Source of the DNA: a virus
Taxonomy: Duplodnaviria > Caudoviricetes
IMG/VR virus record: IMGVR_UViG_3300010149_000008
Direction: 5' to 3' (one strand)
Length of the DNA: 64,000 bases
A program made the translations under genes and the position numbers. The notes below the pieces were generated by a model, which was not told the DNA's origin, made no database searches, and worked only from the letters and a program-made list of their open reading frames with translations. Position 1 is the stretch's first letter. Every line of letters starts with the position of its first letter. Below, one piece after another: positions 1,440 to 26,138 of this stretch.

Positions 1440-3455
1440 ATGAGTTTTACACTTAAAACATTAACAGAAGGTATTAGAGACCGCCACGTAGGCCAGCAAA
1501 ATAAGCGCCTCGTTGAGAAATGGTCTCGCACTGGGCTCCTTAGAGGCATGGACGACGTAAACCGTGAGAACATGGCAACAATGCTTGAGAACCAGGCAGC
1601 ACAAGTTCTTCGCGAGAGCAACACAATGAGCAGCGGTGAGGTTGGTGGTTTCACTAACATCGCATTCCCAATCGTTCGTCGTGTTTTCGGTGGTCTTATT
1701 GCTAACGAGCTAGTTTCAATCCAACCAATGAGTTTACCATCAGGTCTTCTCTTCTACCTTGATTATACATACGGTGGTGATAGCGGTGGATATGGAAAAG
1801 GTGAGTCAATCTACGGTGGCCCAGCAGGCAAGGCAATCCAAAGTGGTGCTCTTGCTTCTGGCGGTCAATATGATCTAGTAGGTAGCGGCTTTTCTAGAAA
1901 ACCAAAAAGACTTTTAGTTTGTGACGGTGGTAATGAAGCACGTGCTGCTAATGCTGTGTTGGCTGATGATCGTGATGAGGTTGTTGCAAATATTAATGAT
2001 TTAGCAACTTTATTAGTTGACCAAAACCCAGCTTTTGTTGGTGCTCCTGCTGACGGTTCAAATGCTTTTGCAGCGTTTGGTACAAATAGTCAAGTAATTA
2101 AAATTGATCAAGCTGAGCATTTAAAGCTAATCCAGTTTGACTCACAGCTAGTTGATAGAATTACTGCTGTAGCTGATGGTGGTTTAGGCGAAAGATACGC
2201 ATTTATGGCACTTCTTTTAAGTGGTATGAGTAGCGTAGATAAGGCAATGGCAAAAGATATCGTTCTTCTTGGAGCATTTGACGACGGTGACGGTACAGAA
2301 GCACTCTCAGCAGTTCTTCCAGATGCAGTTCAAGCAGGACCTGCGCACAACGTGAGAAGACTCAATCAATTAGGAACTTTTGCAGGTGGAGTATTTACAC
2401 CTGATTCAATTGGCGGGACACACGTACTTATGGTTGTTCACTTAGGTGATAAAGATAGTACTGCGCATATATCAGGACAAATTGCTGGAAATAATGCGGC
2501 TGATAACTCTGTTGACGCGCTTACTCTTACTTTCGTGAGAGAGGACACAGTTGATCACCTTGATTCTGCAGGTGCAGCAACATTTGGTTCTGTAACTGGC
2601 GCTCCTGCATTTGAAGGTGACGGATCAGGTGGCACAGCAGATGCTTCTGATGGCACTGCGAATCTTGATATTCCAGAGATTGATATCAAGATTGAGTCAA
2701 TTCCTGTAACTGCTCAAACACGTAAGTTAAGAGCTCGTTGGAGCCCAGAGCTTGCGCAAGACCTCAACGCGTACCACTCAATGGACGCAGAGGTTGAGCT
2801 TACTCAGATCCTTTCAGAGCAAATTGCACTTGAGATTGACCGTGAGATCCTTGGTGATCTTCTTACTGGTGCTCAAGGCGCTAACTTCTTCTGGAGCCGT
2901 TCTCCAGGTAAGTTTGTTAACAAGCGTACTGGTAGTGAGATTGCTCGTACTTCAACTCTTAACCCTGGACCAGCTTTCACTGGTACAGTTCGTGAGTGGT
3001 ATGAGACTTTGACCGAGACAGTTATTGACGTAGCTAATGAGATTCACCGTAAGACTCTACGTGGTTCTGCTAACTTCATCGTGGTTTCACCTGACGTTGC
3101 AACAATCCTTGAGGCTTCAGTTCTTTATCGTCCTTCATATAGCATTGATGGTGACGGCCAAGTTGGTGCTCCTTTCACAATGGGTGCTGAGAAGGTTGGT
3201 ACACTTTCAAATCGTTTCACAGTTTATAAAGATCCTTACTTCCCACGCAACAAGATCCTTGTTGGTTATAAGGGTGGTTCTTATCTCGAGACTGGTTTCG
3301 TTTATGCTCCATATGTACCACTCATCGTTACACCGACTATCTTCCAGCCTGACGATTTCACCCCGAGAAAGGGTGTTATGACTCGTTACGGTAAGAAGAT
3401 GGTACGTGCGGACTTCTATGGTACAGTAACATGCCTCGATATGAACATTATCTAA
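1440..3455 (+). CDS. gp23: Major capsid protein, T4 gp23-like
   Basis: LVEKWSRTGLL, FPIVRRVFGGLIANELVSIQPMSLPSGLLFYLDY, TRKLRARWSPELAQDLNAYHSMDAEVELTQILSEQIALEIDREI, YAPYVPL, PRKGVMTRYG: all gp23 hallmarks. Confidence 0.96.
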   Translation: MSFTLKTLTEGIRDRHVGQQNKRLVEKWSRTGLLRGMDDVNRENMATMLENQAAQVLRESNTMSSGEVGGFTNIAFPIVRRVFGGLIANELVSIQPMSLPSGLLFYLDYTYGGDSGGYGKGESIYGGPAGKAIQSGALASGGQYDLVGSGFSRKPKRLLVCDGGNEARAANAVLADDRDEVVANINDLATLLVDQNPAFVGAPADGSNAFAAFGTNSQVIKIDQAEHLKLIQFDSQLVDRITAVADGGLGERYAFMALLLSGMSSVDKAMAKDIVLLGAFDDGDGTEALSAVLPDAVQAGPAHNVRRLNQLGTFAGGVFTPDSIGGTHVLMVVHLGDKDSTAHISGQIAGNNAADNSVDALTLTFVREDTVDHLDSAGAATFGSVTGAPAFEGDGSGGTADASDGTANLDIPEIDIKIESIPVTAQTRKLRARWSPELAQDLNAYHSMDAEVELTQILSEQIALEIDREILGDLLTGAQGANFFWSRSPGKFVNKRTGSEIARTSTLNPGPAFTGTVREWYETLTETVIDVANEIHRKTLRGSANFIVVSPDVATILEASVLYRPSYSIDGDGQVGAPFTMGAEKVGTLSNRFTVYKDPYFPRNKILVGYKGGSYLETGFVYAPYVPLIVTPTIFQPDDFTPRKGVMTRYGKKMVRADFYGTVTCLDMNII

Positions 3456-3615: not shown

Positions 3616-4782
3616 ATGTTTAAAAAAAGAGATACAAAAATATTATTAGAAAACTGGAGAAGGTTTTTAAATGGTGAAGTATTTGAAGATAAAAAAGTTA
3701 ACGAAATTTATCAAACTGTTTATGCAGGAGGCGGGGGATACGTAACAACTCAGACAGATATACCTAGAAACGATTATTTGATTTATGACGATTATTCTAT
3801 GATATTAGGAAGAGGCATGAACGAAAGTGCTGGAGGAGAAATTCAGATGCAAGCACTTACAAAAAAATTCGTAAAAGAAAATGGAAGCCCTGAACTTGAC
3901 ATTGTTGACTTTTTTTATGAAGTTATTGAATCTTCTTTTGGCAGGTCTAGTGGTGAGCAAAGAAAAAAAGAATTAGAGCTTATTAAGCAAAGAGCTGAAT
4001 TTTATAAAACTGTTTTTTCTCCTTCTATGTACACAGACGAAAAAACTATTATCTTTTTACCTTTGGCACATTTCGGTGACAGGGATTCAACGACTGAGTC
4101 ACAAAGACCTTACATAAAAAAAGACACATCGGGTAAACACGTAGACTTTGACATTTCAAATGAAGAACTTTCAGGAAAAAAAGATTTTAAACAAATAGAA
4201 ATGGATAATGTTAGTGATAATTTTGGTAAAGAAAGTGTACATGAATATTTAACGCTTAAAGATAATATTAACTGGTCAATGCATGATCTAGGACATGCTA
4301 TGATTGAGAGTGTATTTGATAACGATTCTATTATAGACTTTGAAGAGCATCACCCACAAGAAAAAGACAGTCATGAAGCATTTGACTTTATTTTCAAAGA
4401 CTTATCAGCAAGAGGAAAAAGAGAAATAGATTCACTAGAGAACGATGTTAAAAGAAGTGATGCTTTGCATATAAAAGAACTTTTAAATGCATTAACTCCA
4501 GGTGTTGGAGAAGGTGACTTAGAATTTTCTTTGTTTGCAAAACTTATAAAAAACCCTACAGACAAAGGCGTTCAAGAATTAGTTGATTTAATAACTAAGA
4601 ACATAAGAAACAATTTAAATCAGATACACCCTAAAATTATTAAAAGATTTAATATAGATAGCGAAATTTCTTCTGGACTTTCTACTTTAAAGAAATTTTT
4701 AGAAAAAGTATTACATGTTCATAAAGAAGTAGGAAATAGAGTTCATGATGTTTTTAAAATAATTTATGTACCTAAGAATTAA
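3616..4782 (+). CDS. Hypothetical protein, possible internal virion protein
   Basis: 388-aa ORF with SD (aagg); N-terminal ILLENWRRFL motif. Confidence 0.6.
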   Translation: MFKKRDTKILLENWRRFLNGEVFEDKKVNEIYQTVYAGGGGYVTTQTDIPRNDYLIYDDYSMILGRGMNESAGGEIQMQALTKKFVKENGSPELDIVDFFYEVIESSFGRSSGEQRKKELELIKQRAEFYKTVFSPSMYTDEKTIIFLPLAHFGDRDSTTESQRPYIKKDTSGKHVDFDISNEELSGKKDFKQIEMDNVSDNFGKESVHEYLTLKDNINWSMHDLGHAMIESVFDNDSIIDFEEHHPQEKDSHEAFDFIFKDLSARGKREIDSLENDVKRSDALHIKELLNALTPGVGEGDLEFSLFAKLIKNPTDKGVQELVDLITKNIRNNLNQIHPKIIKRFNIDSEISSGLSTLKKFLEKVLHVHKEVGNRVHDVFKIIYVPKN

Positions 4783-4840: not shown

Positions 4841-5218
4841 ATGTTAAGCAACAGAAAAAATACTAGTGTAGTTGTTTCATCTTGGAGAGACTATTTAAGC
4901 GGAAAGCCTGCTAGAAAAAATTTAAACGAAGCAGTTCACAATGCAGACGGAGATAGAGAAGAATGTTTTAAAGCACTAATTTCAGACTTATTAGATCGTG
5001 GTTGGGATGATGATAGAGTTGATGTACTAGTTATTGATGTATTGAAAAAATGTAATATTTCTGATGAAGAGCTAGAGATGATTGCTTACGAACGACCTAG
5101 CAGTCATGAGCTTAACAACGACAAAGATATGGCAGAATATAATGATGATGATTACGACCCAGAGTATAATCCATTAGGCACAGAAGAAGATTCACTTTAT
5201 AATCCAGGCGATCGATAA
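4841..5218 (+). CDS. Hypothetical acidic protein
   Basis: 125 aa, SD aagga; N-terminal VSSWRDYL...LNEA resembles the N-terminus of the previous gene. Confidence 0.6.
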   Translation: MLSNRKNTSVVVSSWRDYLSGKPARKNLNEAVHNADGDREECFKALISDLLDRGWDDDRVDVLVIDVLKKCNISDEELEMIAYERPSSHELNNDKDMAEYNDDDYDPEYNPLGTEEDSLYNPGDR

Positions 5219-5252: not shown

Positions 5253-5618
5253 ATGAAGAAACCAAAATTCTATGAAAACAGCAGCGTACCTAAGATTTTA
5301 AGTAAGTTTGCGCCTATTGAAATATGGGCAATTACTTTAGGCCCTTGGGTTTTTTGTCGTGGCGAGTTAGCTGAAAAAACAAAGAGGCATGAAACAATTC
5401 ATTATTTACAGTATAAAGAGCTTTGGTTTATTGGTTTTCTATTAATATACATATTTGATTATCTATGGGCTGCAGTTTTAAGCAGAAAAGGGTTTTCTCG
5501 TGCGTCTTACCTTTCCATAAGGTTTGAGCAAGAAGCGTGGAACTGCGATGAATTTGAGGACTACTTAGAAAATAGAGAACCTTATGCATGGAAAAATTAT
5601 CCGTTAGGTGGTGAATAA
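5253..5618 (+). CDS. Small HExxH-motif (zincin-like) protein with a hydrophobic segment
   Basis: RHETIHYLQ motif, hydrophobic LWFIGFLLIYIFDYLW, downstream FEQEA that could supply a third ligand. Confidence 0.55.
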   Translation: MKKPKFYENSSVPKILSKFAPIEIWAITLGPWVFCRGELAEKTKRHETIHYLQYKELWFIGFLLIYIFDYLWAAVLSRKGFSRASYLSIRFEQEAWNCDEFEDYLENREPYAWKNYPLGGE

Positions 5619-6145
5619 TGCCTTTTATGAGACAATATAACAGTCAAAAAAAAGTTTCTAAAAGAATTAATACTAGTCCTTCTAAAAGTGATATCGATAC
5701 TGCTAAAAAGCTAGGAATTGATTTGGGTAAAAGCTGGAATGCGTATTCTAAAGAAGTAAGAGTTCACATTTACATAAAAAATATGGATGAAATGGTTAGG
5801 TTTTACAACAAAATACTAGAATTTCCTGTCGTAAGATATTGGAGGTATTCTGATGGTGATGGCACGCAAATAGACTTAGGTGGCAACGTTATAGAATTAT
5901 TTTCTAAAAGCAGTAGAAACTATTCAAATAAAAACTTTCATGGAAACGTTTCACTTTCAGTAAAAGTAAAAGATGTAAACAAGTTATATGAAAAATTTAG
6001 CAAGAAAAATATAAAGCTAGGTGAGTTAATAGAAAATCCTTGGGGTGATGCATCTTTTCACGTTGTTGATCCTGAAGGCAATCGTTTAGCTTTTTTTAGT
6101 CCGACGATTAAAAAAGAAAAATATTACAAAGTTAAAAAAAGCTAA
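5618..6145 (+). CDS. VOC (glyoxalase/bleomycin-resistance) family protein
   Basis: MVRFYNKILEF, VIELF, VKVKDVNKLYEKF, NPWGDASFHVVDPEGNRLAF; TAATG overlap with the previous gene. Confidence 0.85.
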   Translation: MPFMRQYNSQKKVSKRINTSPSKSDIDTAKKLGIDLGKSWNAYSKEVRVHIYIKNMDEMVRFYNKILEFPVVRYWRYSDGDGTQIDLGGNVIELFSKSSRNYSNKNFHGNVSLSVKVKDVNKLYEKFSKKNIKLGELIENPWGDASFHVVDPEGNRLAFFSPTIKKEKYYKVKKS

Positions 6146-6293: not shown

Positions 6294-6548
6294 ATGAAGT
6301 GGTATATGTACGTTATTCTCTGTTTTGACAATTCTTTTTATTGCGGTATTACCACAAATCTTGAAAAAAGATTAAAACAGCACAACGGTGCGATCAAAGG
6401 CGGGGCAAAATACACAAGAAGCCGGCGTCCTTGCAGATATATATACAAAGAAGATGCTCAAAATAGAAGTGATGCATCAAAAAAAGAAGCAACTTTTAAA
6501 AAATTAAATAGAAAACAAAAAGAAAAGTATATTAACTTTATTTCCTGA
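6294..6548 (+). CDS. Stand-alone GIY-YIG endonuclease (UPF0213/YhbQ/SLX1-like)
   Basis: WYMYVILC...FYCGITTNLEKRLKQHNG..KGGAKYTRSRRP. Start reassigned to the ATG at 6294 (SD aggaggg upstream) instead of the TTG at 6234. Confidence 0.88.
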   Translation: MKWYMYVILCFDNSFYCGITTNLEKRLKQHNGAIKGGAKYTRSRRPCRYIYKEDAQNRSDASKKEATFKKLNRKQKEKYINFIS

Positions 6549-7644
6549 ACTCTGGACTAATATAGTCAACGCCCAGAGCAGAAAAAACTTGCTTTTCATT
6601 TTTAGGCATTAAAAACTTTTGCTTATTCTTGTCATAAAGATAATCAAAAGAATAAATAACATCTCTTTTAAAACCTTCATATAACATCTTTACATTGTGC
6701 GCAGCGCTACCAGTCCAGTAACATCTTCTTGTTGGAATAGAAGTCGGACTACACATAAAGACGTCACATTGCATTCCTTCTTTTACAAACTGAACTATGT
6801 TCTTAAAAGATCTTGTTCTACTTTCAGAAACTATATTTCTTTTTAATGTGTTACCGAATAAAAAGCTATAATTCTCCATAAATCTTTTTTCATCCAGAGG
6901 ATGTCTATTTATTCTGCCGGCATCTTTATGACCTACAATATTAACAATTAGATCTAAGTCGCCTACAATGCTTTTCTTTCTACGAAGAGAGCCAGCATTG
7001 TATATATTTTCAACAATAAAGCCATTTTCTTCTAAAATATTGGTAACTTCTTCTTTAACAATGCCGAATACGTTTTTAGCATATTCGTAATCTTTTTTTT
7101 CGCAGCCTAGAGATGCACCTTCATTTAAGAGACTATTGCGATTATTTAGCTTAGATTCTTTAATTACATGATGAGATCCGTCCCAAAAGCCTTCTAATGC
7201 TTTAAAGTCACAAAGATGAATTGCTTCGTGAATAATGCTTTCTTTTAAAAACCTTATATGACTTTGTAAGTTAAATTTTGTCCAGTCAATTTTTAGCTGA
7301 CCGTTGTCTTCATATAAATGATTTGGTTTATAAACATATCCATTAACAACACGATCACAAATACTCTCACCAATTGTTTTCATCTTATTAATTGCTTTAA
7401 CATCAGAATACTTAAAAAGTTCTAAATCAATACTCTCAGCTAACAGTGAATCAAAGCTATATAGAAAATAGTCATAGTCTTTTACTTGATGAGATCTGTT
7501 TTCCATTAAAGCTTTATGATAGTTGACAATTGAAGCGCTATAATCAAAAACATATCTGTCTTTTTCAACATGATACATTACGTTTTCTAATGCCAACTCT
7601 TCTATGCCTTTTACTAACATTTTATGCTGTTGTTTAGTTAGCAT
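6538..7644 (-). CDS. polX: DNA polymerase X family nucleotidyltransferase with an unrelated ~175-aa N-terminal extension
   Basis: AGSLRRKKSIVGDLDLIV (GS and DxD), MQCDVF (third Asp), YWTGSAAHN, EKQVFSALGVDYISPEFR (PolX thumb). Confidence 0.88.
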   Translation of the reverse strand: MLTKQQHKMLVKGIEELALENVMYHVEKDRYVFDYSASIVNYHKALMENRSHQVKDYDYFLYSFDSLLAESIDLELFKYSDVKAINKMKTIGESICDRVVNGYVYKPNHLYEDNGQLKIDWTKFNLQSHIRFLKESIIHEAIHLCDFKALEGFWDGSHHVIKESKLNNRNSLLNEGASLGCEKKDYEYAKNVFGIVKEEVTNILEENGFIVENIYNAGSLRRKKSIVGDLDLIVNIVGHKDAGRINRHPLDEKRFMENYSFLFGNTLKRNIVSESRTRSFKNIVQFVKEGMQCDVFMCSPTSIPTRRCYWTGSAAHNVKMLYEGFKRDVIYSFDYLYDKNKQKFLMPKNEKQVFSALGVDYISPEFRK

Positions 7645-7654
7645 TTTAAGCTCC

Positions 7655-8443
7655 TTATAAAAGAACCTTGTTCATAGCTCTTTTAGACTCTTTAATAAAC
7701 CCATTGTTAAATTCCATAAAATATTCTTCAATAGAATAAATCTTTTTAGAGTCACGACCTTTTACACCAATTTCGCCTAACAACTCAGCATCAATGTCTT
7801 GTTGACTTAATAAGTCATAGTCCATTAAAATCTTTGTGACTTCTTTAGCTCTTTGCTGTCCGTTTTTTCTAGCTGACTTTTGAAAAGCTAGGTTTAAATC
7901 ACCTAATAAATTGCCACTATTACTTTTATCACCTTGAGCAGTAAAAATATTTCCACTCGGCACGTGCTCAATATCACCTTCAGTACCTCTAGTTACTTGT
8001 GAGTCAACAATTAAGAAAAAATCTTCTTTTGGCATGCCTCCGCCTTGCATGTTTGCATCTACAGCGTCGCCTACATCTTGTTGACCTGGGCTGTATGTTC
8101 CATGCCATATATTACCATTAGGATCAACCCATCCTACACCTTGAACATATGAACCACCAGGAGCAGCTAAGCCTTGTTGATTTCTATTGCTGTTGTAAGA
8201 TGATTGTGAAGATGAAGGGTCTTCAAATCCCATTTGTCTTCTCTCTTGTCTTTGTCCTGCCTGTCTATATAGCTCTTCGTCTGCAGCAGAGTGTCCAGGG
8301 AAAGAAGGACCTCGCGATGATCTTCCTCCTCTTACACCACCTCTAGCGTCACCTGCCATTCCATATCTGGTGTCACCCGGAGTAGAAACTTCTTCTATTG
8401 TTTCTCTTATAAGTCTTCGAAGATTTTTAATGCTAATTTTCAT
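7655..8443 (-). CDS. Hypothetical G/S/Q-rich protein, probable internal virion protein
   Basis: N-terminal MKISIKNLRRLIRETIEE amphipathic motif; low-complexity middle. Confidence 0.55.
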   Translation of the reverse strand: MKISIKNLRRLIRETIEEVSTPGDTRYGMAGDARGGVRGGRSSRGPSFPGHSAADEELYRQAGQRQERRQMGFEDPSSSQSSYNSNRNQQGLAAPGGSYVQGVGWVDPNGNIWHGTYSPGQQDVGDAVDANMQGGGMPKEDFFLIVDSQVTRGTEGDIEHVPSGNIFTAQGDKSNSGNLLGDLNLAFQKSARKNGQQRAKEVTKILMDYDLLSQQDIDAELLGEIGVKGRDSKKIYSIEEYFMEFNNGFIKESKRAMNKVLL

Positions 8444-8447
8444 TTAA

Positions 8448-9236
8448 CTAGTCCTTTTCTAGATTATCTTTTATTAAATATTCTCTAATTATGTCTTTTT
8501 TTGGTAGCACTACACATTTATTTGATTTTTCTTTTAAATAAATTCTTTTATTTTTTAGCGGATCTAAACTGTTTACAAACACTGGGTTTGATGTATATAG
8601 AATTTGTGCAGGTCTAAATATGCATTTGTCAACTCCTTCACAATGCTTTTCAAACCAAGGTTTAAGTGTTTCACCATCATACGCTTCGCTTAACATAAAC
8701 CAAAGATGTGCCTTAATTTTATTACTATTAAAAAACATGCCATTTGAAAACTGGCAAACGTAACTTGAATTGTGGAATGATTCATGAAGCGTTTTTACAA
8801 ACATTTCAACAGCTAGTTCTCTATGACTTTTTATCTGTAAGTTGCAATTTAGAGGTTTTTTAAAGTCATCAATGTCTAGCATAATCCATTTTTTTGGATG
8901 ATCAACTATTGTAGGCTTATGACAAATACCTTCTTCAATTTTCTCTTTAATTAGTCTTCTAATCTTATAACCTCGTGTCTTTAAGTTATAAGCATTTTCT
9001 GTTATTTTACCTCTAACAAAACAACAATTTCTTTTCCAAGCGTATTTTTCTACAAGCGAATTTAAGTCGTATATGTCTAAAATTGCTACTTCGTTAAAGC
9101 TATAGTACTTAGAAAAATTTTTATCTATAAGCTCATATTCTTGATTTTGATTTAAATACCAAGACTTGTGTTGTTGTGTATTACATTCTAGAATAGTAAC
9201 TAGATTATTGTTCTTTTTTTTCATTAATTTTGCCAT
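8448..9236 (-). CDS. Archaeo-eukaryotic primase (AEP)-like primase-polymerase domain
   Basis: WIMLDIDDF (DxD), QFSNG...KIKAHLWFML (S...H), VDKCIFRPAQILYTSNP (third acidic motif). Confidence 0.55.
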   Translation of the reverse strand: MAKLMKKKNNNLVTILECNTQQHKSWYLNQNQEYELIDKNFSKYYSFNEVAILDIYDLNSLVEKYAWKRNCCFVRGKITENAYNLKTRGYKIRRLIKEKIEEGICHKPTIVDHPKKWIMLDIDDFKKPLNCNLQIKSHRELAVEMFVKTLHESFHNSSYVCQFSNGMFFNSNKIKAHLWFMLSEAYDGETLKPWFEKHCEGVDKCIFRPAQILYTSNPVFVNSLDPLKNKRIYLKEKSNKCVVLPKKDIIREYLIKDNLEKD

Positions 9237-9282
9237 ATTGTTTTAAAATAATTATTACACAACATGACAAAATAAACAAATC

Positions 9283-9699
9283 TTACTCTTCTGAACTTTC
9301 TTCACCAGCTTGAGGCTCAACATTATCATCACAATCTTCTGGACATTCTTCTCCTTCACAAGGCTCACAAGCAGGATCTACAGCCGGCTGGGGCTCGTCA
9401 CATCCGTCTTCACCCTGAAACTCAGGCTCACAATCTAATTGGTCTTCACCACCAGATACATCTTGATCACTATTTGTTTCGCCTGCTTCTGAGCCTGCTT
9501 CTGCACCTGCTTCTGCACCTGCTTCTGCACCTGCTTCTGCACCTGCTTCTGCACCTGCTTCTGCACCTGCTTCTGCACCTGCTTCTGACATTCCCATGTC
9601 TGTTTCTTGTGCTTCTTTTTCATCATGATCGTCTTTTTCACAACCACTTACCAATAAAGATAAAGCTAACATTAAAAATAACAATGAGTTCTTGAACAT
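9283..9699 (-). CDS. Lipoprotein with EAGA repeats and an acidic Cys-rich C-terminus
   Basis: Signal MFKNSLLFLMLALSLLVSG-C (lipobox), SD aggag upstream on the minus strand. Confidence 0.75.
   Translation of the reverse strand: MFKNSLLFLMLALSLLVSGCEKDDHDEKEAQETDMGMSEAGAEAGAEAGAEAGAEAGAEAGAEAGAEAGSEAGETNSDQDVSGGEDQLDCEPEFQGEDGCDEPQPAVDPACEPCEGEECPEDCDDNVEPQAGEESSEE
9482..9589. repeat. 12-bp tandem repeat x9 (cctgcttctgca)
   Basis: Nine near-identical units encoding EAGA on the minus strand. Confidence 0.95.
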
Positions 9700-11257: not shown

Positions 11258-11479
11258 ATGAGAATTACTGAGAATACATTAAGAAAAATGATTATTCAAG
11301 AGATGAGAAACGTTAGAAGACAAAAAAGACTTCAAGAAGGCACAGCTGAAAGGCCAATCGCTGTAACTCCTCAACTTTTAAATAGAATTATTCGCGAAGA
11401 ATACACAAGATTTCAAAGAAGACAAAGACTAACAGAGGCTAAAAGAAGAAGATTAGCAGCTGCTAAAAGAAGAAGATAA
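11258..11479 (+). CDS. Small, very basic protein, probable internal head protein
   Basis: MRITENTLRKMIIQEM, LNRIIREEY, LQEG, LTEA; Arg-rich C-terminus. Confidence 0.6.
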   Translation: MRITENTLRKMIIQEMRNVRRQKRLQEGTAERPIAVTPQLLNRIIREEYTRFQRRQRLTEAKRRRLAAAKRRR

Positions 11480-18222: not shown

Positions 18223-21200
18223 ATGGCAGAACAGACATTTAAGTCTCCAGGATTTTTCGAGCGAGAGATCGAAGTCATTAGTAGACCTCTTACACGAAAT
18301 ACAGCTACACCGGTTGGTGTAATTGGTCCTGCCCAAAAAGGACAAGCATTCGTACCTAAAACAGTAACAAGTGTTGATGAATTTATTAGAGAATTCGGTA
18401 TGCCAGATCAAGACACGTCTGCTGCCCATGCTGTCAGTGAATTCTTTACAAACGGCGGAAAAGCAGCAACATTCTGCCGCATCTTAGGCTCAGGAAAATC
18501 TGCAGCTGCAGGCACAAATAATTACGCAGGCTTTAAGATTGATGGAACAGCTCTTACAGCAGGAGGCGAAACAGATAGAGCACGTGGCGCAGTACAATTT
18601 ATTGTTGCAGAGCATGAAATTAACTTGGCAGAACACGTTACTTATGGTATTTTTAACGATAACGACTCACATAAGACATCAATGGATCCAGACCCATCAG
18701 ACAATGGCGGTGCTTTACAAGATGTCAATAGCTCTGATAGAGAAGTTCAATTAGTTCGTGCTATGATTTTTATGCATAAAGATTATACTCTTAGGATTAG
18801 TGAAGCCTCAGATACAACTGTTGGCCAATCGAGTGGTACTAATGATACTGCAACTCCAGCTTCCGGATTATTTAAGCTATGGATAATGAAGCATGATGAT
18901 GATACAGATGCTGATCCTTATACAGTATCATTAGACCCTTCTTCTACGCAATACATTGCAAAAGTTTTAAACACAGATCCTTATAGCTTTACAAAAGAAA
19001 AACACTTTTTATATGCAGACTTTCCTGTAGATAGCGAAATTGCTGAAGTTAAAGATGTAGCTGATCGTGTTGGTGTTGTAAGAGGTAATAGTGAAAATAT
19101 AGATTTGTATGGTGACTTTGTATCTAGGTTTACTGCACCTCAAACAACGTCTTTTATCTCCCAACCTTTTGGCAAGAAAGAATACGATCTTTTCCACTTT
19201 GAATCACTTGATGATGGTGCATATGCAAGTGGAAGTTATAAAATTTCTATTGCAAACATTAAGGCATCAACTCAAAAGAATTATAAGTATGGAACATTTT
19301 CTGTCCAACTTCGAAAAATTGATGATACAGATGAAGCACCAGTTATTCTCGAGTCATATAGCAGATGCTCTTTAGATCCTGACGCAAAAAATTATATTGC
19401 AAGATTAATTGGTGATCAAAAAGTAATGCTTTCTTTAGACGTTGATTCTGAAGATGAAAAGAGACTTGTAAGAGAAGGAACATTCCAAAGCAAGTCGTCT
19501 AGAATTCGTGTTGTTATGTCAAAAGACGTTATGAGAGGCGAAGCTCCAGATGACGCGCTTCCTTTTGGGTTTAGAGGCATACCCGCTTTAAAAACTACAA
19601 GTGACGGAAAAGATGCCAACGCAACAACAGTTAATAGTTTGCTTCTAGGCAAAGTAGTTGATTCATCATCAGTTTTAAATGCGTTAGGTAGTTCAATTTT
19701 GCCTCCTTTACCTTTTAGATCCAAGGTTACAAAAGGTAGCATGCTTAATAATGCAGGCGCATATTTTCAAGAATACTTTGGGCAAGCTCTTAACAAAGAA
19801 ACTGGTTTAAAGACTTCACAAGAAAACGTAAAGACATCTCTTTATTGGGGGCTTCATACTTCTAGAGTTTCAAATATTGATCGACCAAATGACAGTCTTT
19901 CTACAGACTTTAATCCTTTAATTAGATCTTTGACAAAATTTCTTGCAAAAAGAGACGAAGTTAAGTTTAGTGGAACAGCTGCAGATAAGTTTAACAATAA
20001 CAAATTTAGTCTTGCAAAAGTAGCATTCCCAGGAAGTACAGTAGCATCAATTCAAGGTAGTCCTCTTGATGCATTCTTGGAAGCTGTTTATGTAAGAAAC
20101 GCTGATGTTGACAGTGCATTTTATGATGCAGTTAATCATACAATTGATATGGATGCTGATTCTAGTGCTAACGATCCTTTCATAGGAGAATTAAGTACTG
20201 TAGCTTCAAATGCTTTAATTGTAGGTACAACTTATGAAATATTAACAACTCCTGACAACACAGCTGCAGGTATATCAAATAATGTTGTAGGCGAAATATT
20301 TACAGCAACCTTAACTTCTACAGGCGATGCTAATGGAACAATGAGACCATTTAGAAATACAAGAGCTACAATGGCTAAGTTGCTAGCTGAAGATATTACA
20401 AAGTTTAATAAATACAGCCAGATGGCTAAGTTTACTGCTCCTTTTTATGGTGGTTTTGACGGCGTTAACATTTTAAATAGAGACGATGCTTTCTTTACAG
20501 ATAGAGCAACATCAGTTGATTTAGGTGGACATGCAGGCGACGGTGGTTATACAAGTGGTCTAGACGGTACTGATGATGCTGATCCTATGCAAGGTAAAGA
20601 ATTAAATAACAATGCTGTTATATCATATAGAAATGCTATATTAGTTATGACTGATGAGATGATTATTGATCATAATGTCTTGGTTGTTCCGGGAATTCGT
20701 GAATCACTCATTTCAGATTATGCAGCACGTCGTGTAAGAGATTATGGCAAAGCAATTTATTTAATGGATATTCCTCATTACACTAAAGATAACGAAAGAA
20801 TATTTGTTTCATCTCGTGGTATTGCAACAGGAACAGCAGATGTTGATTTGACATCTTCTATCTTCGACCAGCGTGAGCTTGATTCATCATATGTTGCAAC
20901 GTATTTTCCTGATGTAATGATTAAAGACAGTGGTGATGATGAAAATGCTAGACAGACAAATCATAGAGCTAAGCGTGTACCATCATCAGCTGTTGCTTTA
21001 GGTGCACTTGCAAGAACAGACGCAAACCAAAGTCCTTGGTTTGCTCCTGCAGGATTTTCTCGTGGTGCTCTACCTAATGTTACAAGTCTTGATGTAAGAT
21101 TAAACGCAGCAGATCGTGATACTCTTTACGAGGCACGAATCAATCCAATTGCGAACTTCCCAAATAATCAGTTTGTTATATTTGGTCAGAAGACAACGCA

Positions 21201-21534
21201 AATTGCAAGAACAGCACTTGATAGAGTTAACGTTAGACGATTAATGATTAATATCAAGAGAAGAATTCAGAAAGTTGCACAAGGTTTGCTATTTGAGCAA
21301 AATGATGCAGCAACAAGAAACCGTTTTATTTCAAGAACATCTTCGATTTTGGCAGACGTTAGAGTTCGTCAAGGTATTGAAGATTTCCGCGTAATCATGG
21401 ACGACACAAATAACTCTGCTGAGGATGTGGATAACAATAGATTGAATGGTCGTATTGTTGTTGTACCAACTCGAGCTGTTGAGTTTATTGCAATGGACTT
21501 TGTAATTACAAATAGCGGTGTAGAATTCCCTTAA
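18223..21534 (+). CDS. Tail sheath protein 1
   Basis: SPGFFEREI, GVIGPAQKG.AFVP, PWFAPAGFSRG, RINPIANFP..FVIFGQKT, ALDRVNVRRL, LFEQND, VPTRAVEFIAMDF. Confidence 0.93.
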   Translation: MAEQTFKSPGFFEREIEVISRPLTRNTATPVGVIGPAQKGQAFVPKTVTSVDEFIREFGMPDQDTSAAHAVSEFFTNGGKAATFCRILGSGKSAAAGTNNYAGFKIDGTALTAGGETDRARGAVQFIVAEHEINLAEHVTYGIFNDNDSHKTSMDPDPSDNGGALQDVNSSDREVQLVRAMIFMHKDYTLRISEASDTTVGQSSGTNDTATPASGLFKLWIMKHDDDTDADPYTVSLDPSSTQYIAKVLNTDPYSFTKEKHFLYADFPVDSEIAEVKDVADRVGVVRGNSENIDLYGDFVSRFTAPQTTSFISQPFGKKEYDLFHFESLDDGAYASGSYKISIANIKASTQKNYKYGTFSVQLRKIDDTDEAPVILESYSRCSLDPDAKNYIARLIGDQKVMLSLDVDSEDEKRLVREGTFQSKSSRIRVVMSKDVMRGEAPDDALPFGFRGIPALKTTSDGKDANATTVNSLLLGKVVDSSSVLNALGSSILPPLPFRSKVTKGSMLNNAGAYFQEYFGQALNKETGLKTSQENVKTSLYWGLHTSRVSNIDRPNDSLSTDFNPLIRSLTKFLAKRDEVKFSGTAADKFNNNKFSLAKVAFPGSTVASIQGSPLDAFLEAVYVRNADVDSAFYDAVNHTIDMDADSSANDPFIGELSTVASNALIVGTTYEILTTPDNTAAGISNNVVGEIFTATLTSTGDANGTMRPFRNTRATMAKLLAEDITKFNKYSQMAKFTAPFYGGFDGVNILNRDDAFFTDRATSVDLGGHAGDGGYTSGLDGTDDADPMQGKELNNNAVISYRNAILVMTDEMIIDHNVLVVPGIRESLISDYAARRVRDYGKAIYLMDIPHYTKDNERIFVSSRGIATGTADVDLTSSIFDQRELDSSYVATYFPDVMIKDSGDDENARQTNHRAKRVPSSAVALGALARTDANQSPWFAPAGFSRGALPNVTSLDVRLNAADRDTLYEARINPIANFPNNQFVIFGQKTTQIARTALDRVNVRRLMINIKRRIQKVAQGLLFEQNDAATRNRFISRTSSILADVRVRQGIEDFRVIMDDTNNSAEDVDNNRLNGRIVVVPTRAVEFIAMDFVITNSGVEFP

Positions 21535-21578: not shown

Positions 21579-24500
21579 ATGGCTGGACAAGGCTCAGCGA
21601 GAGTAACTCTACGTGAAATCGATTTATCACAAGTAAGAAATCCTCAACAACTACCACAGGGTGTCCCAGCTGCTGTTGTTGGTCCTGCGAGAAAAGGTCC
21701 AGCCTTTGTCCCGCAAACATTTGCAACAATGCAGCAGTTTAATGAGGTCTTTGGAAATATGCTTGAAGTGGGACGAGAAGGCAACTCAAACCAATTTGGA
21801 CCTTTAGCTCTTAACGAGTGGATGCGTTCTGCGCAAGCAGGAACGTATCTTCGCGTTTTAGGCGTTGGTAATGGTTTGCCATCAAGCAGCGGCAAAACAT
21901 CTGAAGCAGGTTTTGTTGTAGGTGAAAAACAGCTTCAATTGCAATCAACAGGTCTTGCAAAAGTTGGTGACAACGAAAATGCAGCTATTACAGACTCAAC
22001 TGCAGCTTTAGCTTTAGGCAGAACTCATATGCTTGGCTGCTTTATGAAAGATGCAGAAGGTAGCACATATCTTGCAGATGCAGGAATGGCTTCAGAAGAT
22101 GCTGCAGCTTCTATTGTTATAGACTTTGGTGATCAAGTGCCTGAAGATGGCAGTACTCTTTCTTTAATCGCAGACGATGGTGACGGCACATTTACAACTA
22201 GAGTTTATGGTTTTGATAATGGCGGCGGCGCTGTTGCAAACACTAATCATGTTATTAACACAGTGGGTGGTGCAAATGCAATTGCTGCACTTCTAGCTAC
22301 AGAAATTCAACAAAATCATGCAAATTTAAATGCTGTAGCTGCAGCAAATACTGGGCGACTAACGATTACACAAGTCCAGTCAGGCGCAGCAGGTAATACA
22401 GAAGTTAAAGCAACACTTAATAATGCTGTTACAAATAAAATTACAATTACTTCTGCAGACGGCACAAGCATTACAAATAGTACATCTGGCGCAACGTTTA
22501 GATTTAGAGAAGGAACAGGCGGAACCAAAGCTTCAGGTAAAATTTCAGGACAAGATGCAGCAATTACAGATGGACAAAACATTGTAATTAAAAGTCCAGA
22601 CGTTACAGGTACAGAAAAAACTGTAACATTTACTTTTAATACACAGGCAACAATTGATACTGCAATTGATAATGATGGAGCTGTTGCTGTAGGACAAGAC
22701 AAAGCTGATGCTAAAGCAGCTGCAGCAACTGCAGGATTTTATAGAGTTGCTGCAGCAACTGGTGCGATTACTGTGTTAAATGTTACTGGAGGCTCAAATG
22801 CAGAAAATAATGCAGCATCTTTACAAAATCTGTTAAATGCTATTAACTCTTCTGGACATGATATCTCTGGTCTTATTACAGGAGAACGATCAGACGACGA
22901 CCTTGTTTTAACTCAGGTACTTCAAGGAACTGAAGGTAATCTAGCTTTAACTACAACAGCTGCTGCTGCCTTTACTATTGGTGGTTTAGAAGATGGTAGC
23001 GGTAACGCTAATGTCATAGAAGGCGGCACAGCAGCTGCTAACGCTAATGTAACGTTAAAGTTTAACGGTCAACCAAACGCAGGTGACGTTATAAGACTTC
23101 CTAATCTAAATGGCTCAACAGATGGAGAAGCTTTTCACTTTATAGCAACGCTAACAGGAGATCTCATTGGTGGTCTAAATGCTACAAGACCAGGTGGTCT
23201 AGATGATACAATTGGCGGAAATACTGCTATAGCTGTTGAGTTAGGTGAGTCAATTGATGTAACACTAGATAATTTAAGACATGCATTACTACAAAACGGT
23301 GGCGCAGACCCTGATAATAATGCAGGTCATGGATTAGATAAAGATAATATATCAGTTGTTATTGATTTCTCAAGCAAAGAATTAAAAATTGCTGCTGATG
23401 GTGCAAACGGTTTGGCAGACAACAAAGAATTAATCTTTAACGTGTCTTCAAACGTAACAGTTTCTAATCCTGCAGGTGAGAGTTTAGTTGGTAACTTTGG
23501 TGAAAAGACAATCAACTTTTCAGGTGGCGAGACAAATGCTGCACAACCAGTTATTCGTGGCGTTTTAATGACTCCACAAGGTGTAAGAGCTTCTTTAGAG
23601 GTCAATGATAATTTAGGAGACGATGATGCAGATATTTTAGTTCCATTAAAAGACTTATCATCTCATGATAAAGTTAGGCTTCGTGCACATGGAAAAACAT
23701 TTGGTAATACAGCTGATAATAATCTTGCAGGATACGTTGTAGGTGAAGTTGATAGCAGTCAAGGATTTAAATTAATTTTAAATGGCTATTCTAATATAGA
23801 GAACCCTGCAGTTTTGGACTGTTCATTCGATCCTAATTCACCATCATATTTTGCAAAAGTATTAAACACAGATCCAACAAAGATGGAAGAGTTAGGACAT
23901 TATTTATACGCTAACTGGGATATTAATCCAGCCGTTGCTGCTCCTTCAAATGCAGGCTTAAAGCATAGTGGTGCGAGTGTTATTGGTACAAACTATGAAG
24001 ACATGAAGGGTTTCTTGGTTGCAGGTGCAGCAGGAAGAAACACATCAGATACAGGTAAACCTGACTATGAAGACTTTAGAAGCAAATTTGCAACTGCAAG
24101 AACGCCATGGATTGTTTCGCAATTTTATAGTGCAGGTGTAAATACTGCTGCTAGACCTGGGACGGCAGCCTCGGGCGGCGCAGTTAAGCTATTTAGACTT
24201 TACTCAGTAGATGACGGTGTAATTTCTAATGGCAAATTTAGATTGTTAATTTCAAACTTAAGATACGGTGGACAAAATGATTATGGATCATTTGATATGT
24301 CACTTGAAAGTTTTGCGTCAGATCCTATTAGAGGAACTGTTGTAGCTTCATGGAAAAATGCAAACTTAGATACTAATAGCAGAAACTTTATCGGTCGACT
24401 TGTTGGTGATAAACACATTTATTATGATTTTGAGAGTGACTTAGGAAAACAAAGACTACGTGAAGAAGGTCAATATGACAGAAAAAATCCTTACGTAAGA

Positions 24501-26138
24501 ATTGAACTTTCAGATGCACTTAAGCAAGGTGACGTCGAAATCGATGCTTTACCAACAGGTTTCCAAGGTCATGCACACTTATTTACTAAGAGTAATGGCA
24601 ACTTCTTAGAACTTGATGTAGCTGAAGGTAATAGAGTTTTTACAGACTCTGCTAATCTAGTTACAGAAACTTTATCACAAGCGCAGGTTTTACCTCTTGA
24701 CTTTGTAACAAGCATTAATAGAATTGAAGGTGCTTCTTCTTTAGCTTCTGATGATGATTTAGCTTGGGGCGTTAAATTTGCTTTAAGAGAAAACAATCAT
24801 ATAAGTTATACTGATTCGAATGGCAATTTAGTTAAAGGTCACAAAGAGTTAACAGAGCAAGTATTTAACAAATCAATTAGTTCATGGGCTAAGTTCTTTC
24901 CTTCGTTTGGATCGAATCCTGCTTGGATTACAGATGATGCTGCAGACTCAAGTCAAAATTCTTTCTTCTCATTAGAAAAAATTGCAATACCAACAGCTTC
25001 TTTAGACACTGATAGCAATATATCTACTTGGGATGGAGCTACTTATAAGAGAAAACCAGCAGACACGCCAAGTGGTAGATTTGTTAAAATTTCTAAAGAC
25101 GCGTTAGGCGGAAATGCTAAATATCTTAAGTTCCGATGTATGTTCCAAGGTGGATTTGATGGTGTTAATATATTTGATGAAGAAAAAGCTGAATTATCAG
25201 GCGTGGCATCTTTAAGAGAAGGTGAAGACGAGACAAATTCTCAAAAGTTTACTGGTCCTACAGTTATGGCATATCAAAGAGCAGTTGATGTTTTAACTGA
25301 TAAGTCTGCAACTGAGTTCCAATTGCTAGCTATTCCTGGCCAAAGATCACCACGAGTTACTGACTATGCAATTACAGCTTGTGAAGATAGATTTGATGCA
25401 ATGCTTATTATTGATATTGTTGAGAAAGATGCTTTAAACAGCTTAATTGAAGACAGTGATGTTAAGCCACATGTTAGAAATACTATTTCGTTATTTTCTG
25501 ATCGTGTTTTAGATACATCATTTGCTGCAGCTTATTTTCCAGATGTAGTTGTACGTCGTCCTTCTGACAATGCACCAATTGTTGTCCCACCATCTGTTGG
25601 AATGCTTGGTGTAATGAGTAGAAACGACTCGATTGCAGATCCATGGTTTGCTCCTGCAGGCTTAAATAGAGGTCGTCTAAGTGCTATTGATTCTAGAGTT
25701 CAAATGAACAGAGACTTGTTAGATGATCTTTATGATGCTGACATTAATCCAATTTACGTTCCAGCTGGACGTAGTGGTGAGGTTTACGCATTTGGTCAAA
25801 AGACACTTCTCCAAGATCAGTCAGCGCTCGATAGAATTAATGTACGTCGTCTTCTTATTGACATTAGACGCAAGGTTAAGAAAGTTGGCGAGCAGTTATT
25901 ATTTGAGCCAAATAGATCATCTACATTATCTAGATTTTCTTCATTGGTTGAACCAATCATGGCAAACGTTCAGGAACGAAGAGGTGTTACTCGTTATAAG
26001 GTTCAAATTGACTCTTCAACGACGACACAAAACGACATTGAGAACAATACAATTCGTGGCAAGATCTACTTGCAACCTACTAAGTCTGTAGAGTTTATTT
26101 CTTTAGACTTTGTGGTCACAAATACAATTCAGCAATAA
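21579..26138 (+). CDS. Tail sheath protein 2, with three inserted beta-rich domains
   Basis: VTLREIDLS, VVGPARKGPAFVP, PWFAPAGLNRG, INPI...FGQKTL, ALDRINVRRLL, LFEPN, LQPTKSVEFISLDF. Confidence 0.93.
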   Translation: MAGQGSARVTLREIDLSQVRNPQQLPQGVPAAVVGPARKGPAFVPQTFATMQQFNEVFGNMLEVGREGNSNQFGPLALNEWMRSAQAGTYLRVLGVGNGLPSSSGKTSEAGFVVGEKQLQLQSTGLAKVGDNENAAITDSTAALALGRTHMLGCFMKDAEGSTYLADAGMASEDAAASIVIDFGDQVPEDGSTLSLIADDGDGTFTTRVYGFDNGGGAVANTNHVINTVGGANAIAALLATEIQQNHANLNAVAAANTGRLTITQVQSGAAGNTEVKATLNNAVTNKITITSADGTSITNSTSGATFRFREGTGGTKASGKISGQDAAITDGQNIVIKSPDVTGTEKTVTFTFNTQATIDTAIDNDGAVAVGQDKADAKAAAATAGFYRVAAATGAITVLNVTGGSNAENNAASLQNLLNAINSSGHDISGLITGERSDDDLVLTQVLQGTEGNLALTTTAAAAFTIGGLEDGSGNANVIEGGTAAANANVTLKFNGQPNAGDVIRLPNLNGSTDGEAFHFIATLTGDLIGGLNATRPGGLDDTIGGNTAIAVELGESIDVTLDNLRHALLQNGGADPDNNAGHGLDKDNISVVIDFSSKELKIAADGANGLADNKELIFNVSSNVTVSNPAGESLVGNFGEKTINFSGGETNAAQPVIRGVLMTPQGVRASLEVNDNLGDDDADILVPLKDLSSHDKVRLRAHGKTFGNTADNNLAGYVVGEVDSSQGFKLILNGYSNIENPAVLDCSFDPNSPSYFAKVLNTDPTKMEELGHYLYANWDINPAVAAPSNAGLKHSGASVIGTNYEDMKGFLVAGAAGRNTSDTGKPDYEDFRSKFATARTPWIVSQFYSAGVNTAARPGTAASGGAVKLFRLYSVDDGVISNGKFRLLISNLRYGGQNDYGSFDMSLESFASDPIRGTVVASWKNANLDTNSRNFIGRLVGDKHIYYDFESDLGKQRLREEGQYDRKNPYVRIELSDALKQGDVEIDALPTGFQGHAHLFTKSNGNFLELDVAEGNRVFTDSANLVTETLSQAQVLPLDFVTSINRIEGASSLASDDDLAWGVKFALRENNHISYTDSNGNLVKGHKELTEQVFNKSISSWAKFFPSFGSNPAWITDDAADSSQNSFFSLEKIAIPTASLDTDSNISTWDGATYKRKPADTPSGRFVKISKDALGGNAKYLKFRCMFQGGFDGVNIFDEEKAELSGVASLREGEDETNSQKFTGPTVMAYQRAVDVLTDKSATEFQLLAIPGQRSPRVTDYAITACEDRFDAMLIIDIVEKDALNSLIEDSDVKPHVRNTISLFSDRVLDTSFAAAYFPDVVVRRPSDNAPIVVPPSVGMLGVMSRNDSIADPWFAPAGLNRGRLSAIDSRVQMNRDLLDDLYDADINPIYVPAGRSGEVYAFGQKTLLQDQSALDRINVRRLLIDIRRKVKKVGEQLLFEPNRSSTLSRFSSLVEPIMANVQERRGVTRYKVQIDSSTTTQNDIENNTIRGKIYLQPTKSVEFISLDFVVTNTIQQ

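What the first reader, a model, noticed from the sequence alone, without database searches (positions are those of the whole stretch)
6538..7644. PolX with a cleavable-looking leader: a polymerase that may be packaged and injected with the genome
Seen: residues 1-175 are unrelated to PolX and hold six L/I-x-E sites (LME, LAE, LYE, LKE, IKE, LNE). Directly after LNE-G begins a ~190-aa palm and thumb PolX with intact catalytic Asp residues and no lyase or HhH domains. Known: African swine fever virus PolX is a similarly minimal enzyme, and gp21-type proteases cut after LxE. Inference: the leader targets it to the prohead and is removed, delivering an active repair or terminal-transferase enzyme at the moment of infection.
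Basis: partly seen in the sequence, partly recalled or inferred. Interest (0 to 1): 0.72.

Follow-up and report, generated by a model that had tools for sequence, protein, structure and literature searches.

The report
Phage PolX with protease-cuttable pro-domain
An uncultured marine jumbo phage encodes a small, catalytically intact family-X DNA polymerase behind a conserved 150-residue domain of unknown fold, and the head-protease cut motif is so over-represented in it that it may be trimmed and loaded into the capsid, though no protein data show this.

Summary
The ORF (6538-7644, minus strand, 368 aa) is real and has about 28 full-length metagenomic homologues.

**PolX core (178-368).** It superposes on Pol beta palm and thumb (Z 18, rmsd 2.5 A). 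All catalytic residues are invariant.

**N-terminal part (1-150).** This is not a loose leader. It is a confidently folded, conserved helical domain with no match in Pfam, PDB, AFDB, BFVD or the ESM Atlas. HEAIH is not conserved, so it is not a metalloprotease.

**Linker (151-177).** It is conserved but predicted flexible. It ends in hydrophobic-hydrophobic-x-Glu followed by Gly or Ser in all 25 family members.

**Evidence for protease processing.**
- The phage encodes a T4 gp21-type head protease.
- An unbiased scan of residue pairs found LxE and IxE most over-represented in the head-assembly module (2.0x). IxE ranked first and LxE fifth in the three-gene PolX cassette (3.0x). The rest of the record is at 1.1x.
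- PolX is the most enriched of 108 proteins.
- In T4 the same metric singles out the scaffold and core proteins that gp21 degrades.

**Verdict.** I put about 0.45 on PolX being a head-protease substrate cut in the linker, most likely as capsid cargo. I put about 0.38 on an uncleaved cytoplasmic repair polymerase. Other agents of this scan noted leader-tagged cargo elsewhere in this genome.

The parts
6538..7644 (-). Whole ORF, 368 aa plus stop; PolX-family protein P0001
   Evidence: about 28 full-length homologues at 42-85% identity, two more at 36-39%
7195..7644 (-). N-terminal domain, residues 1-150: helical bundle plus a beta-hairpin (110-119). It matched no known fold in any library searched. 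Invariant or near-invariant residues: L10, E15, L17, L19, E20, H43, Y103, P107, H109, W121, F124, H129, K134, E135, S136
   Evidence: AF2 pLDDT 86, pTM 0.81; no significant fold or profile match; conservation
7216..7230 (-). HEAIH (residues 139-143), a chance HExxH
   Evidence: All three key positions vary among homologues
7114..7194 (-). Linker, residues 151-177: conserved (58% mean pairwise identity) but pLDDT below 50. Carries two conserved cut-motif sites
7156..7164 (-). I-K-E (161-163), preceded by V160; [LI]xE in 19 of 23 homologues
7117..7128 (-). L-N-E-G (173-176), preceded by L172: proposed maturation cut after E175. [LI]xE in 23 of 23, next residue G (20) or S (3); also kept in the two 36-39% relatives
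6541..7113 (-). PolX core, residues 178-368: palm plus thumb, bacterial-type motifs
   Evidence: Superposes on Pol beta 143-334, Z 18, rmsd 2.5 A, about 170 residues; PF14791; Thermus PolX and TdT by sequence
6952..6960 (-). D229-L-D231, the two palm carboxylates
   Evidence: Invariant; aligned to GDIDI of canonical PolX; coordinates checked
6763..6765 (-). D294, third catalytic Asp
   Evidence: Invariant; coordinates checked
7655..8443 (-). Upstream operon gene, 262 aa: conserved N-terminal leader (MK..LR.IIRETIEE-VSTPGD), Gly-rich middle, conserved C-terminal domain. Candidate head-internal protein. 10 nt before the PolX start
8448..9236 (-). First enzyme gene of the cassette, 262 aa: primase-polymerase-like (AEP), with a DxD motif in WIMLDIDDF
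   Evidence: phrog_16950 DNA primase, E 5e-13; no Pfam hit; family [LI]xE enrichment 2.64x
9283..9699 (-). Lipoprotein-like acidic repeat protein, first gene of the only minus-strand block in the record. Its position relative to the cassette varies among relatives

Best explanation
[quoted passage not shown] Its C-terminal 190 residues are a complete, catalytically intact palm-and-thumb core. That core starts at the same place as stand-alone minimal PolX enzymes (31-36 residues before the GS-RR motif, against 41 here). It is preceded by a conserved, folded, lineage-specific 150-residue domain and a conserved flexible linker. The gene is the last in a tightly spaced, conserved operon: AEP primase-like gene, leader-tagged protein, PolX. 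The phage is a T4-like jumbo phage with a gp21-type head protease. Inferred: the precursor enters the prohead and the protease cuts it in the exposed linker, after I-K-E163 and/or L-N-E175. This frees a minimal polymerase that begins GASLGC. The N-domain acts as a long pro-domain for docking or targeting, possibly holding the enzyme inactive. It is further fragmented at its other conserved sites (LLAE70, FLKE135). The core would then stay in the head and enter the cell with the DNA, where it could fill gaps or extend ends before phage genes are expressed. The steps from entry into the prohead onward are inference from motif statistics and precedent, not observation.
For: 1. gp21-family protease present: Peptidase_S77 at 100.8 bits and phrog_207 at E 4e-50, in a T4-like portal-protease-scaffold-capsid module. 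2. The junction motif is invariant in 25 of 25 relatives. The constraint pattern fits a cut site: P4 and P3 hydrophobic, P2 free, P1 Glu, P1' Gly/Ser. It sits in a linker with pLDDT below 50. 3. [LI]xE observed/expected: head module 68/34 = 2.0, PolX cassette 28/9.4 = 3.0, tail 1.15, remainder 1.09. PolX is the most significant of 108 proteins (14 vs 4.2, P 1.4e-4). 4. An unbiased scan of 400 residue pairs at gaps 0-4 ranks LxE and IxE first and second in the head module. It ranks IxE first and LxE fifth in the cassette, and neither in the top eight elsewhere. 5. The sharper motif hydrophobic-[LIM]-x-E raises the contrast: head 2.75, cassette 4.43, rest 1.05. 6. The enrichment holds across families: PolX 2.64, AEP 2.64, middle protein 2.50, against 1.33 in 141 other PolX proteins. 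It holds in a 55%-identical relative and, more weakly, in a 43% one. 7. Calibration on 100 kb of T4: the metric's top hit is scaffold gp22; gp21, gp68, Inh and gp23 follow; background is 1.13. 8. The operon neighbour carries a conserved leader that also matches small proteins beside the protease. 9. Precedent: propeptides of 124-275 residues with multiple cut sites on ejected proteins of giant phages, including a vRNAP subunit cut at TFE-275 (PMC5694885; PMC9026906).
Against: 1. The N-domain is folded and under clear constraint: 47% mean pairwise identity, with invariant His43, His109, His129, Trp121, Pro107 and Glu135. This suggests a function beyond targeting. The full-length model has pTM 0.80, so the domain may dock on the core. 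2. It lies where canonical PolX enzymes carry their 8-kDa and HhH DNA-binding domains. Weak leads point to descent from them: co-linear BLASTP alignments into residues 62-176, a language-model search of residues 1-178 returning only PolX N-terminal clusters at 0.83-0.87, and hhalign placing 70-104 on the first HhH at E 0.11. 3. T4's injected cargo (IPI-III, Alt) is not motif-enriched; only degraded proteins are. 4. The excess in PolX comes mainly from six conserved sites, which could be kept for structural reasons. 5. The PolX N-terminus ranks 42nd of 108 against the neighbour's leader model. 6. The signal is weaker in the most distant clade. 7. There are no virion data, and no cultured phage carries a homologue.
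Confidence: 0.45

Rival explanations
1. Uncleaved cytoplasmic repair polymerase. The N-domain is this lineage's replacement for, or a heavily diverged form of, the 8-kDa/HhH DNA-binding module. The whole 368-residue protein does gap filling or end processing during replication, together with the AEP primase-polymerase. The cut-motif excess is incidental or structural.
For: The N-domain is folded, conserved and in the canonical position, with canonical size. Weak leads link it to PolX N-terminal regions. It shares an operon with a primase-like enzyme. Its N-terminus does not match the neighbour's leader tag. The KES and EG..LGC.KK motifs around two of the sites are conserved beyond what a cut site needs.
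Against: It leaves unexplained why all three cassette families carry 2.5-2.6 times the expected [LI]xE, the same motif that tops the head module, when the rest of the genome and other PolX proteins do not. The N-domain is near neutral (mean net charge -0.9), whereas the core is +5.8 and canonical PolX N-terminal regions average +3. No HhH family is found by Pfam in any of 20 members or by fold search.
Confidence: 0.38
2. Protease-gated enzyme that is not packaged. The head protease cuts the exposed linker in the cytoplasm late in infection. This switches the polymerase on or off, much as T4 gp21 cuts a disordered loop of a CD-NTase.
For: gp21 is reported to cut an LPE-bearing disordered loop of a Pol-beta-fold nucleotidyltransferase in vivo (PMC12991175). 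PolX has two conserved motif sites in a flexible linker.
Against: A single switch site does not need a motif excess along the whole protein and its operon mates. gp21-type proteases act mainly inside proheads and inactivate themselves (PMC12991175; PMC5694885).
Confidence: 0.07
3. The N-domain is a second catalytic domain, for example a metal-dependent end-cleaning activity standing in for the PHP domain of bacterial PolX. This is compatible with either fate of the protein.
For: Invariant His43, His109, His129, Glu135 and Asp155.
Against: There is no family, fold or motif match of any kind. HExxH is not conserved.
Confidence: 0.1

Closest known systems
African swine fever virus PolX (minimal palm-plus-thumb family-X polymerase)
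   Same: The proposed mature core (176-368) has the same two-subdomain layout and nearly the same start point. All catalytic residues are intact. Weak sequence match over 210-366 (E 0.1-0.2).
   Different: As encoded it carries an extra 175 residues. Its motifs (GS-x-AHN) are of the bacterial PolX type, closest to Thermus PolX. It is a phage protein, not a eukaryotic-virus one.
Bacterial PolX (Thermus thermophilus, Bacillus subtilis YshC)
   Same: Best sequence relatives of the core (E 2e-5). N-terminal extension of similar length before the palm.
   Different: No detectable 8-kDa or HhH domains and no PHP domain.
T4 internal proteins IPI-III and Alt, with capsid targeting sequences removed by gp21
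   Same: Same protease family in the phage. I/L-x-E cut motif at the boundary between the removed part and the mature part.
   Different: T4 targeting sequences are 10-20 residues (PMC5694885; PMC9026906). Here the removed part would be a 175-residue folded domain. T4 cargo is not motif-enriched.
Long propeptides of ejected head proteins in giant phages (SPN3US gp47, gp50, gp53, gp54; 201phi2-1 vRNAP beta cut at TFE-275)
   Same: Propeptides of more than 100 residues with several redundant cut sites, removed by a gp21-like protease. One sits on a packaged polymerase subunit (PMC5694885).
   Different: Those phages use A/S/G-x-E motifs and package RNA polymerases. No DNA polymerase or primase cargo is described in the papers I read. 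No sequence or fold relation to this N-domain.
CD-NTase EcCdnG activation loop cleaved by T4 gp21
   Same: A Pol-beta-fold nucleotidyltransferase with a disordered segment bearing an L-x-E site for the head protease (PMC12991175).
   Different: That is a host defence sensor cut in the cytoplasm. This is a phage protein with many sites.

Membership tests
Family X DNA polymerase (PolX) | Palm with GS-x-RR nucleotide-binding motif and three catalytic Asp | tested here: met
   G218 S219 R221 R222, D229, D231 and D294 are invariant in 23 homologues and aligned to the same motifs of canonical PolX
Family X DNA polymerase (PolX) | C-terminal thumb subdomain (PF14791) above the curated cut-off | tested here: met
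   40.3 bits against a cut-off of 25, residues 308-367
Family X DNA polymerase (PolX) | Fold superposes on Pol beta palm and thumb | tested here: met
   Z 18.3, rmsd 2.6 A, 171 residues, model 175-368 on Pol beta 143-334
Family X DNA polymerase (PolX) | N-terminal 8-kDa and HhH fingers domains (present in canonical members, absent in ASFV PolX) | tested here: inconclusive
   No Pfam hit in 20 members. hhalign E 0.11. No fold match. However, co-linear alignments and language-model neighbours point that way
Family X DNA polymerase (PolX) | Template-directed DNA synthesis | not testable with these tools
   Needs an enzyme assay
Head-internal proteins processed by a gp21-type prohead protease | Phage encodes the protease | tested here: met
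   Peptidase_S77 at 100.8 bits; phrog_207 at E 4e-50
Head-internal proteins processed by a gp21-type prohead protease | Conserved I/L-x-E at the boundary of removed and mature parts, in an accessible segment | tested here: met
   25 of 25 relatives; linker pLDDT below 50
Head-internal proteins processed by a gp21-type prohead protease | Several redundant cut motifs in the removed part | tested here: met
   9 against 2.5 expected in residues 1-175; four conserved, all with a hydrophobic residue at P4
Head-internal proteins processed by a gp21-type prohead protease | N-terminal targeting tag shared with other cargo of the same phage | tested here: not met
   A leader model built from the neighbour gene's family scores the PolX N-terminus at -1.4 bits, rank 42 of 108. 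Only one tag type was modelled, and T4 Alt also differs from the IP tag
Head-internal proteins processed by a gp21-type prohead protease | Protein, with a processed N-terminus, present in purified particles | not testable with these tools
   Uncultured phage; no homologue in 50,697 phage records
HExxH zinc metalloprotease | Conserved His-Glu-x-x-His | tested here: not met
   Positions 139, 140 and 143 all vary among 23 homologues

The most novel reading that the evidence does not exclude
The whole cassette is a DNA-synthesis kit loaded into the capsid: AEP primase-polymerase, leader-tagged protein and PolX. The kit is trimmed by the head protease and injected with the genome. Priming, gap filling or end repair of the incoming DNA could then start before any phage gene is expressed. 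That would be a DNA-polymerase counterpart of the injected RNA polymerases of N4, phiKZ-like and crAss-like phages.
Probability: 0.3. Interest if true: 0.85.

Novelty: new variant of a known kind. Interest (0 to 1): 0.62.

Why it matters
Phages are known to inject RNA polymerases, ADP-ribosyltransferases and anti-restriction proteins. Among the papers and phage records I searched I found no injected DNA polymerase or primase.

If this PolX and its operon mates are capsid cargo, incoming phage DNA would arrive with its own repair or priming enzymes. That bears on how jumbo phages survive host nucleases and how they start replication.

Independent of packaging, the family is a compact PolX with an N-terminal domain that matched no known fold in any library searched. 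It is abundant in marine metagenomes and could be of enzymological interest.

The motif-enrichment test used here, calibrated on T4, is a cheap way to nominate protease substrates in uncultured T4-like phages.

Tried and rejected
- **HExxH protease idea:** rejected, because the motif is not conserved.
- **Fold of the N-domain alone:** nothing significant. Foldseek PDB E 0.7 or worse, AFDB clusters E 0.3 or worse, BFVD E 0.4 or worse, VIA-align over 48,161 chains Z 6.1 or lower, which is noise for helical bundles, ESM Atlas TM 0.43 or lower.
- **Profile tests for a hidden 8-kDa/HhH module:** hhalign E 0.11. An HMM of canonical N-terminal regions scored family members at 7 bits or less, with the median at the shuffle level. 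Pfam on 20 members found nothing recurrent.
- **Paralogue of the N-domain elsewhere in the 133-kb record:** none.
- **Leader-tag similarity of the PolX N-terminus:** a hand-made pattern matched, but the key basic position is not conserved in the family. An objective model gave no score.
- **Complex prediction of the PolX N-domain with the C-terminal domain of the leader-tagged neighbour** (to test a piggy-back loading idea): no verdict, score 0.01.
- **T4 late-promoter TATAAATA:** not enriched, 12 against 9.4. Sigma-70-like promoters and terminators around the cassette are at chance level, so I could not infer timing of expression.
- **Strand argument:** the cassette is the only minus-strand block, but in T4 alt, ipI-III, inh and hoc are also on the opposite strand to the head genes, so I dropped it.
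- **ATP-ligase and PolB searches in the record:** no hits, but the record is only about half the genome.
- **Charge and evolutionary rate of the N-domain:** near neutral; 46% identity to a relative where enzymes are 63-68% and the scaffold is 52%. Not decisive.

Full report
**The object.** The ORF at 6538-7644 on the minus strand encodes 368 residues. A word-indexed search found 28 relatives, nearly all full-length, at 42-85% identity, all from metagenomes. An exhaustive search added two at 36-39%. No cultured phage record carries a homologue beyond weak matches to the polymerase core.

**The phage.** The window lies in a 133-kb viral record judged about half complete. A neighbouring protein occurs on a 256-kb contig. 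The phage is a distant T4-like myovirus:
- gp23-type capsid protein at 1440-3455
- sheath and tube
- upstream of the window, large terminase, portal, a gp21-family head protease and an acidic scaffold-like protein

By capsid protein, the nearest cultured relatives are Flavobacterium phage immuto and Microcystis phage Mel-JY01.

**The polymerase half.**
- Pfam finds the PolX thumb above its cut-off and the palm weakly.
- The closest solved relatives by sequence are Thermus PolX and TdT. ASFV PolX matches weakly.
- With a 23-sequence alignment, AlphaFold2 gives pLDDT 85.5 and pTM 0.80.
- Model residues 175-368 superpose on Pol beta 143-334 at Z 18 and rmsd 2.5 A over about 170 residues.
- The GS-x-RR motif, D229, D231, D294 and YWTGS..N317 are invariant.

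The core starts 41 residues before the GS motif, much like stand-alone minimal PolX proteins of 167-175 residues found in the same search.

**The N-terminal half.**
- It is not a loose leader. Residues 1-150 fold confidently (pLDDT 86 when modelled alone) into helices plus one beta-hairpin.
- Mean pairwise identity is 47%, against 64% for the core.
- Many polar and aromatic residues are invariant.
- HEAIH varies at all three key positions, so the metalloprotease idea falls.
- No library recognises the domain: Pfam on 20 members, PHROGs, Foldseek on PDB, AFDB and BFVD, an exhaustive VIA-align pass and the ESM Atlas.

Three weak leads suggest it might descend from the canonical 8-kDa/HhH region:
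- BLASTP alignments with canonical PolX run co-linearly into residues 62-176.
- hhalign's only hit places 70-104 on the first HhH, at E 0.11.
- A language-model search with residues 1-178 returned only PolX N-terminal clusters, at 0.83-0.87, below the level that counts.

I treat descent as open.

**The linker.** Residues 152-177 have pLDDT below 50, yet mean pairwise identity is 58%. The linker holds V-I-K-E163, present as [LI]xE in 19 of 23 homologues. It ends in L-L-N-E175 followed by G. In all 23 aligned homologues, and in the two distant ones, this site reads hydrophobic-hydrophobic-x-Glu followed by Gly or Ser.

**Is the motif count more than chance?**
- Residues 1-175 hold nine [LI]xE sites against 2.5 expected, and none of 5000 shuffles reached nine. 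The core holds five against 1.8.
- The excess is specific to Glu at +2.

Over the whole 133-kb record, observed/expected by group is:

| Group | [LI]xE | hydrophobic-[LIM]-x-E |
|---|---|---|
| Head-assembly module | 2.0 | 2.75 |
| PolX cassette (three genes) | 3.0 | 4.43 |
| Tail genes | 1.15 | not computed separately |
| Remainder of the record | 1.09 | 1.05 (all genes outside the two groups above) |

- PolX is the single most significant of 108 proteins.
- A scan of all 400 residue pairs at gaps 0-4, blind to the hypothesis, ranks LxE and IxE first and second in the head module. It ranks IxE first and LxE fifth in the cassette, and neither among the top eight elsewhere.
- The excess holds across families: PolX 2.64, AEP 2.64, middle protein 2.50, against 1.33 for 141 other PolX proteins.
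- It recurs in a relative at 55% identity, and more weakly in one at 43%.

**Calibration on T4.** On 100 kb of T4 the same metric puts scaffold gp22 first, followed by gp21, gp68, Inh and gp23. Background is 1.13. The metric does find gp21 substrates. However, it finds the ones that are chopped up. It does not find the injected cargo IPI-III and Alt, which carry one site each.

**Limits of the motif signal.** In PolX the excess comes mostly from six conserved sites (E70, E135, E163, E175, E212, E252). The other sites occur at about the expected rate. The signal is therefore real, but it could in principle be carried by structurally conserved residues.

**Context.**
- PolX is the last gene of a tight operon, with gaps of 4 and 10 nt and a good ribosome-binding site.
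- Upstream lie an AEP primase-like gene (phrog_16950) and a 262-residue protein.
- That protein has a conserved N-terminal leader, a Gly-rich middle and a conserved C-terminal domain.
- The three-gene order is kept in relatives down to 43% identity.
- A model of the leader also picks out three small proteins, two of them beside the protease. It does not pick out the PolX N-terminus.
- Notes by other agents of this scan describe many leader-tagged enzymes elsewhere in this genome. I used them only as leads.

**Literature.**
- T4 gp21 cuts after Glu in I/L-x-E (PMC12991175).
- T4 targeting sequences are 10-20 residues. Giant phages with gp21-like proteases have propeptides of 124 to 275 residues with redundant cut sites, one on a virion RNA polymerase subunit (PMC5694885; PMC9026906).
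- gp21 can also cut a disordered loop of a nucleotidyltransferase in the cytoplasm (PMC12991175).

**Weighing.**
- For processing: the protease, the invariant junction site in a flexible linker, the motif excess shared only with the head module, the leader-tagged operon mate, and the giant-phage precedent.
- Against: a folded, conserved N-domain in the canonical DNA-binding position, no shared tag, the T4 cargo counter-example, and no protein data.

Starting from a prior of about 5%, I arrive near even odds:

| Reading | Probability |
|---|---|
| Prohead-protease substrate cut in the linker, most likely as capsid cargo | 0.45 |
| Uncleaved cytoplasmic two-domain repair polymerase | 0.38 |
| Cytoplasmic protease-gated switch | 0.07 |

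A second catalytic activity in the N-domain (0.1) is compatible with any of these.

Noticed in passing
7655-8443 (-); also 11258-11479 (+) and genome C1:60480-60923 and C1:61000-61278 (upstream of the window): A conserved N-terminal leader (MK..LR.IIRETIEE then VSTPGD) is kept in 17 homologues of the 262-aa protein. A model of it also scores three small proteins, two of which lie beside the head protease. It is a candidate capsid-targeting tag.
   Followed up: partly
8448-9236 (-): AEP primase-polymerase-like protein with a DxD motif and 9 [LI]xE sites against 3.2 expected. Its family of 30 averages 2.64x. Pfam and PDB sequence searches find nothing.
   Followed up: partly
genome C1:58611-59447 (between portal and protease, upstream of the window): This 278-aa protein of no known family has the strongest excess of hydrophobic-[LIM]-x-E in the record (10 against 1.8), so it is probably a core or scaffold component.
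   Followed up: no
3616-4782 and 4841-5218 (+): The two genes after the capsid gene share an N-terminal W-R-x-[FY]-L motif. Unlike the head module they are depleted in [LI]xE (3 against 7 expected).
   Followed up: no
5618-6145 (+): Glyoxalase/bleomycin-resistance fold behind a basic extension of about 48 residues. [LI]xE is 4 against 1.1 here and 4 against 1.6 in a relative.
   Followed up: no
6294-6548 (+) and 6538-7644 (-): A short GIY-YIG gene converges on PolX, and the two coding regions overlap by 11 nt at their 3' ends. The arrangement is kept in relatives L002-L004.
   Followed up: partly
18223-21534, 21579-26138, 26876-30571 (+): Three very large ORFs (1103, 1519 and 1231 aa) begin with a similar G-P-A-x-K-G-x-A-F-V-P motif. 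The first is a tail sheath, so the phage may carry three sheath paralogues.
   Followed up: no
1440-3455 (+): The capsid protein is 671 aa, but the Gp23 family match covers only residues 375-661, leaving a large N-terminal part unexplained.
   Followed up: no
L002:3224-4009: In one relative the AEP gene as called contains an in-frame stop near its 3' end, where it overlaps the start of the leader-tagged gene.
   Followed up: no
6538-9699 (-): This four-gene block is the only sizeable minus-strand block in the 133-kb record. All other genes of 60 aa or more, bar two doubtful ORFs, are on the plus strand.
   Followed up: partly
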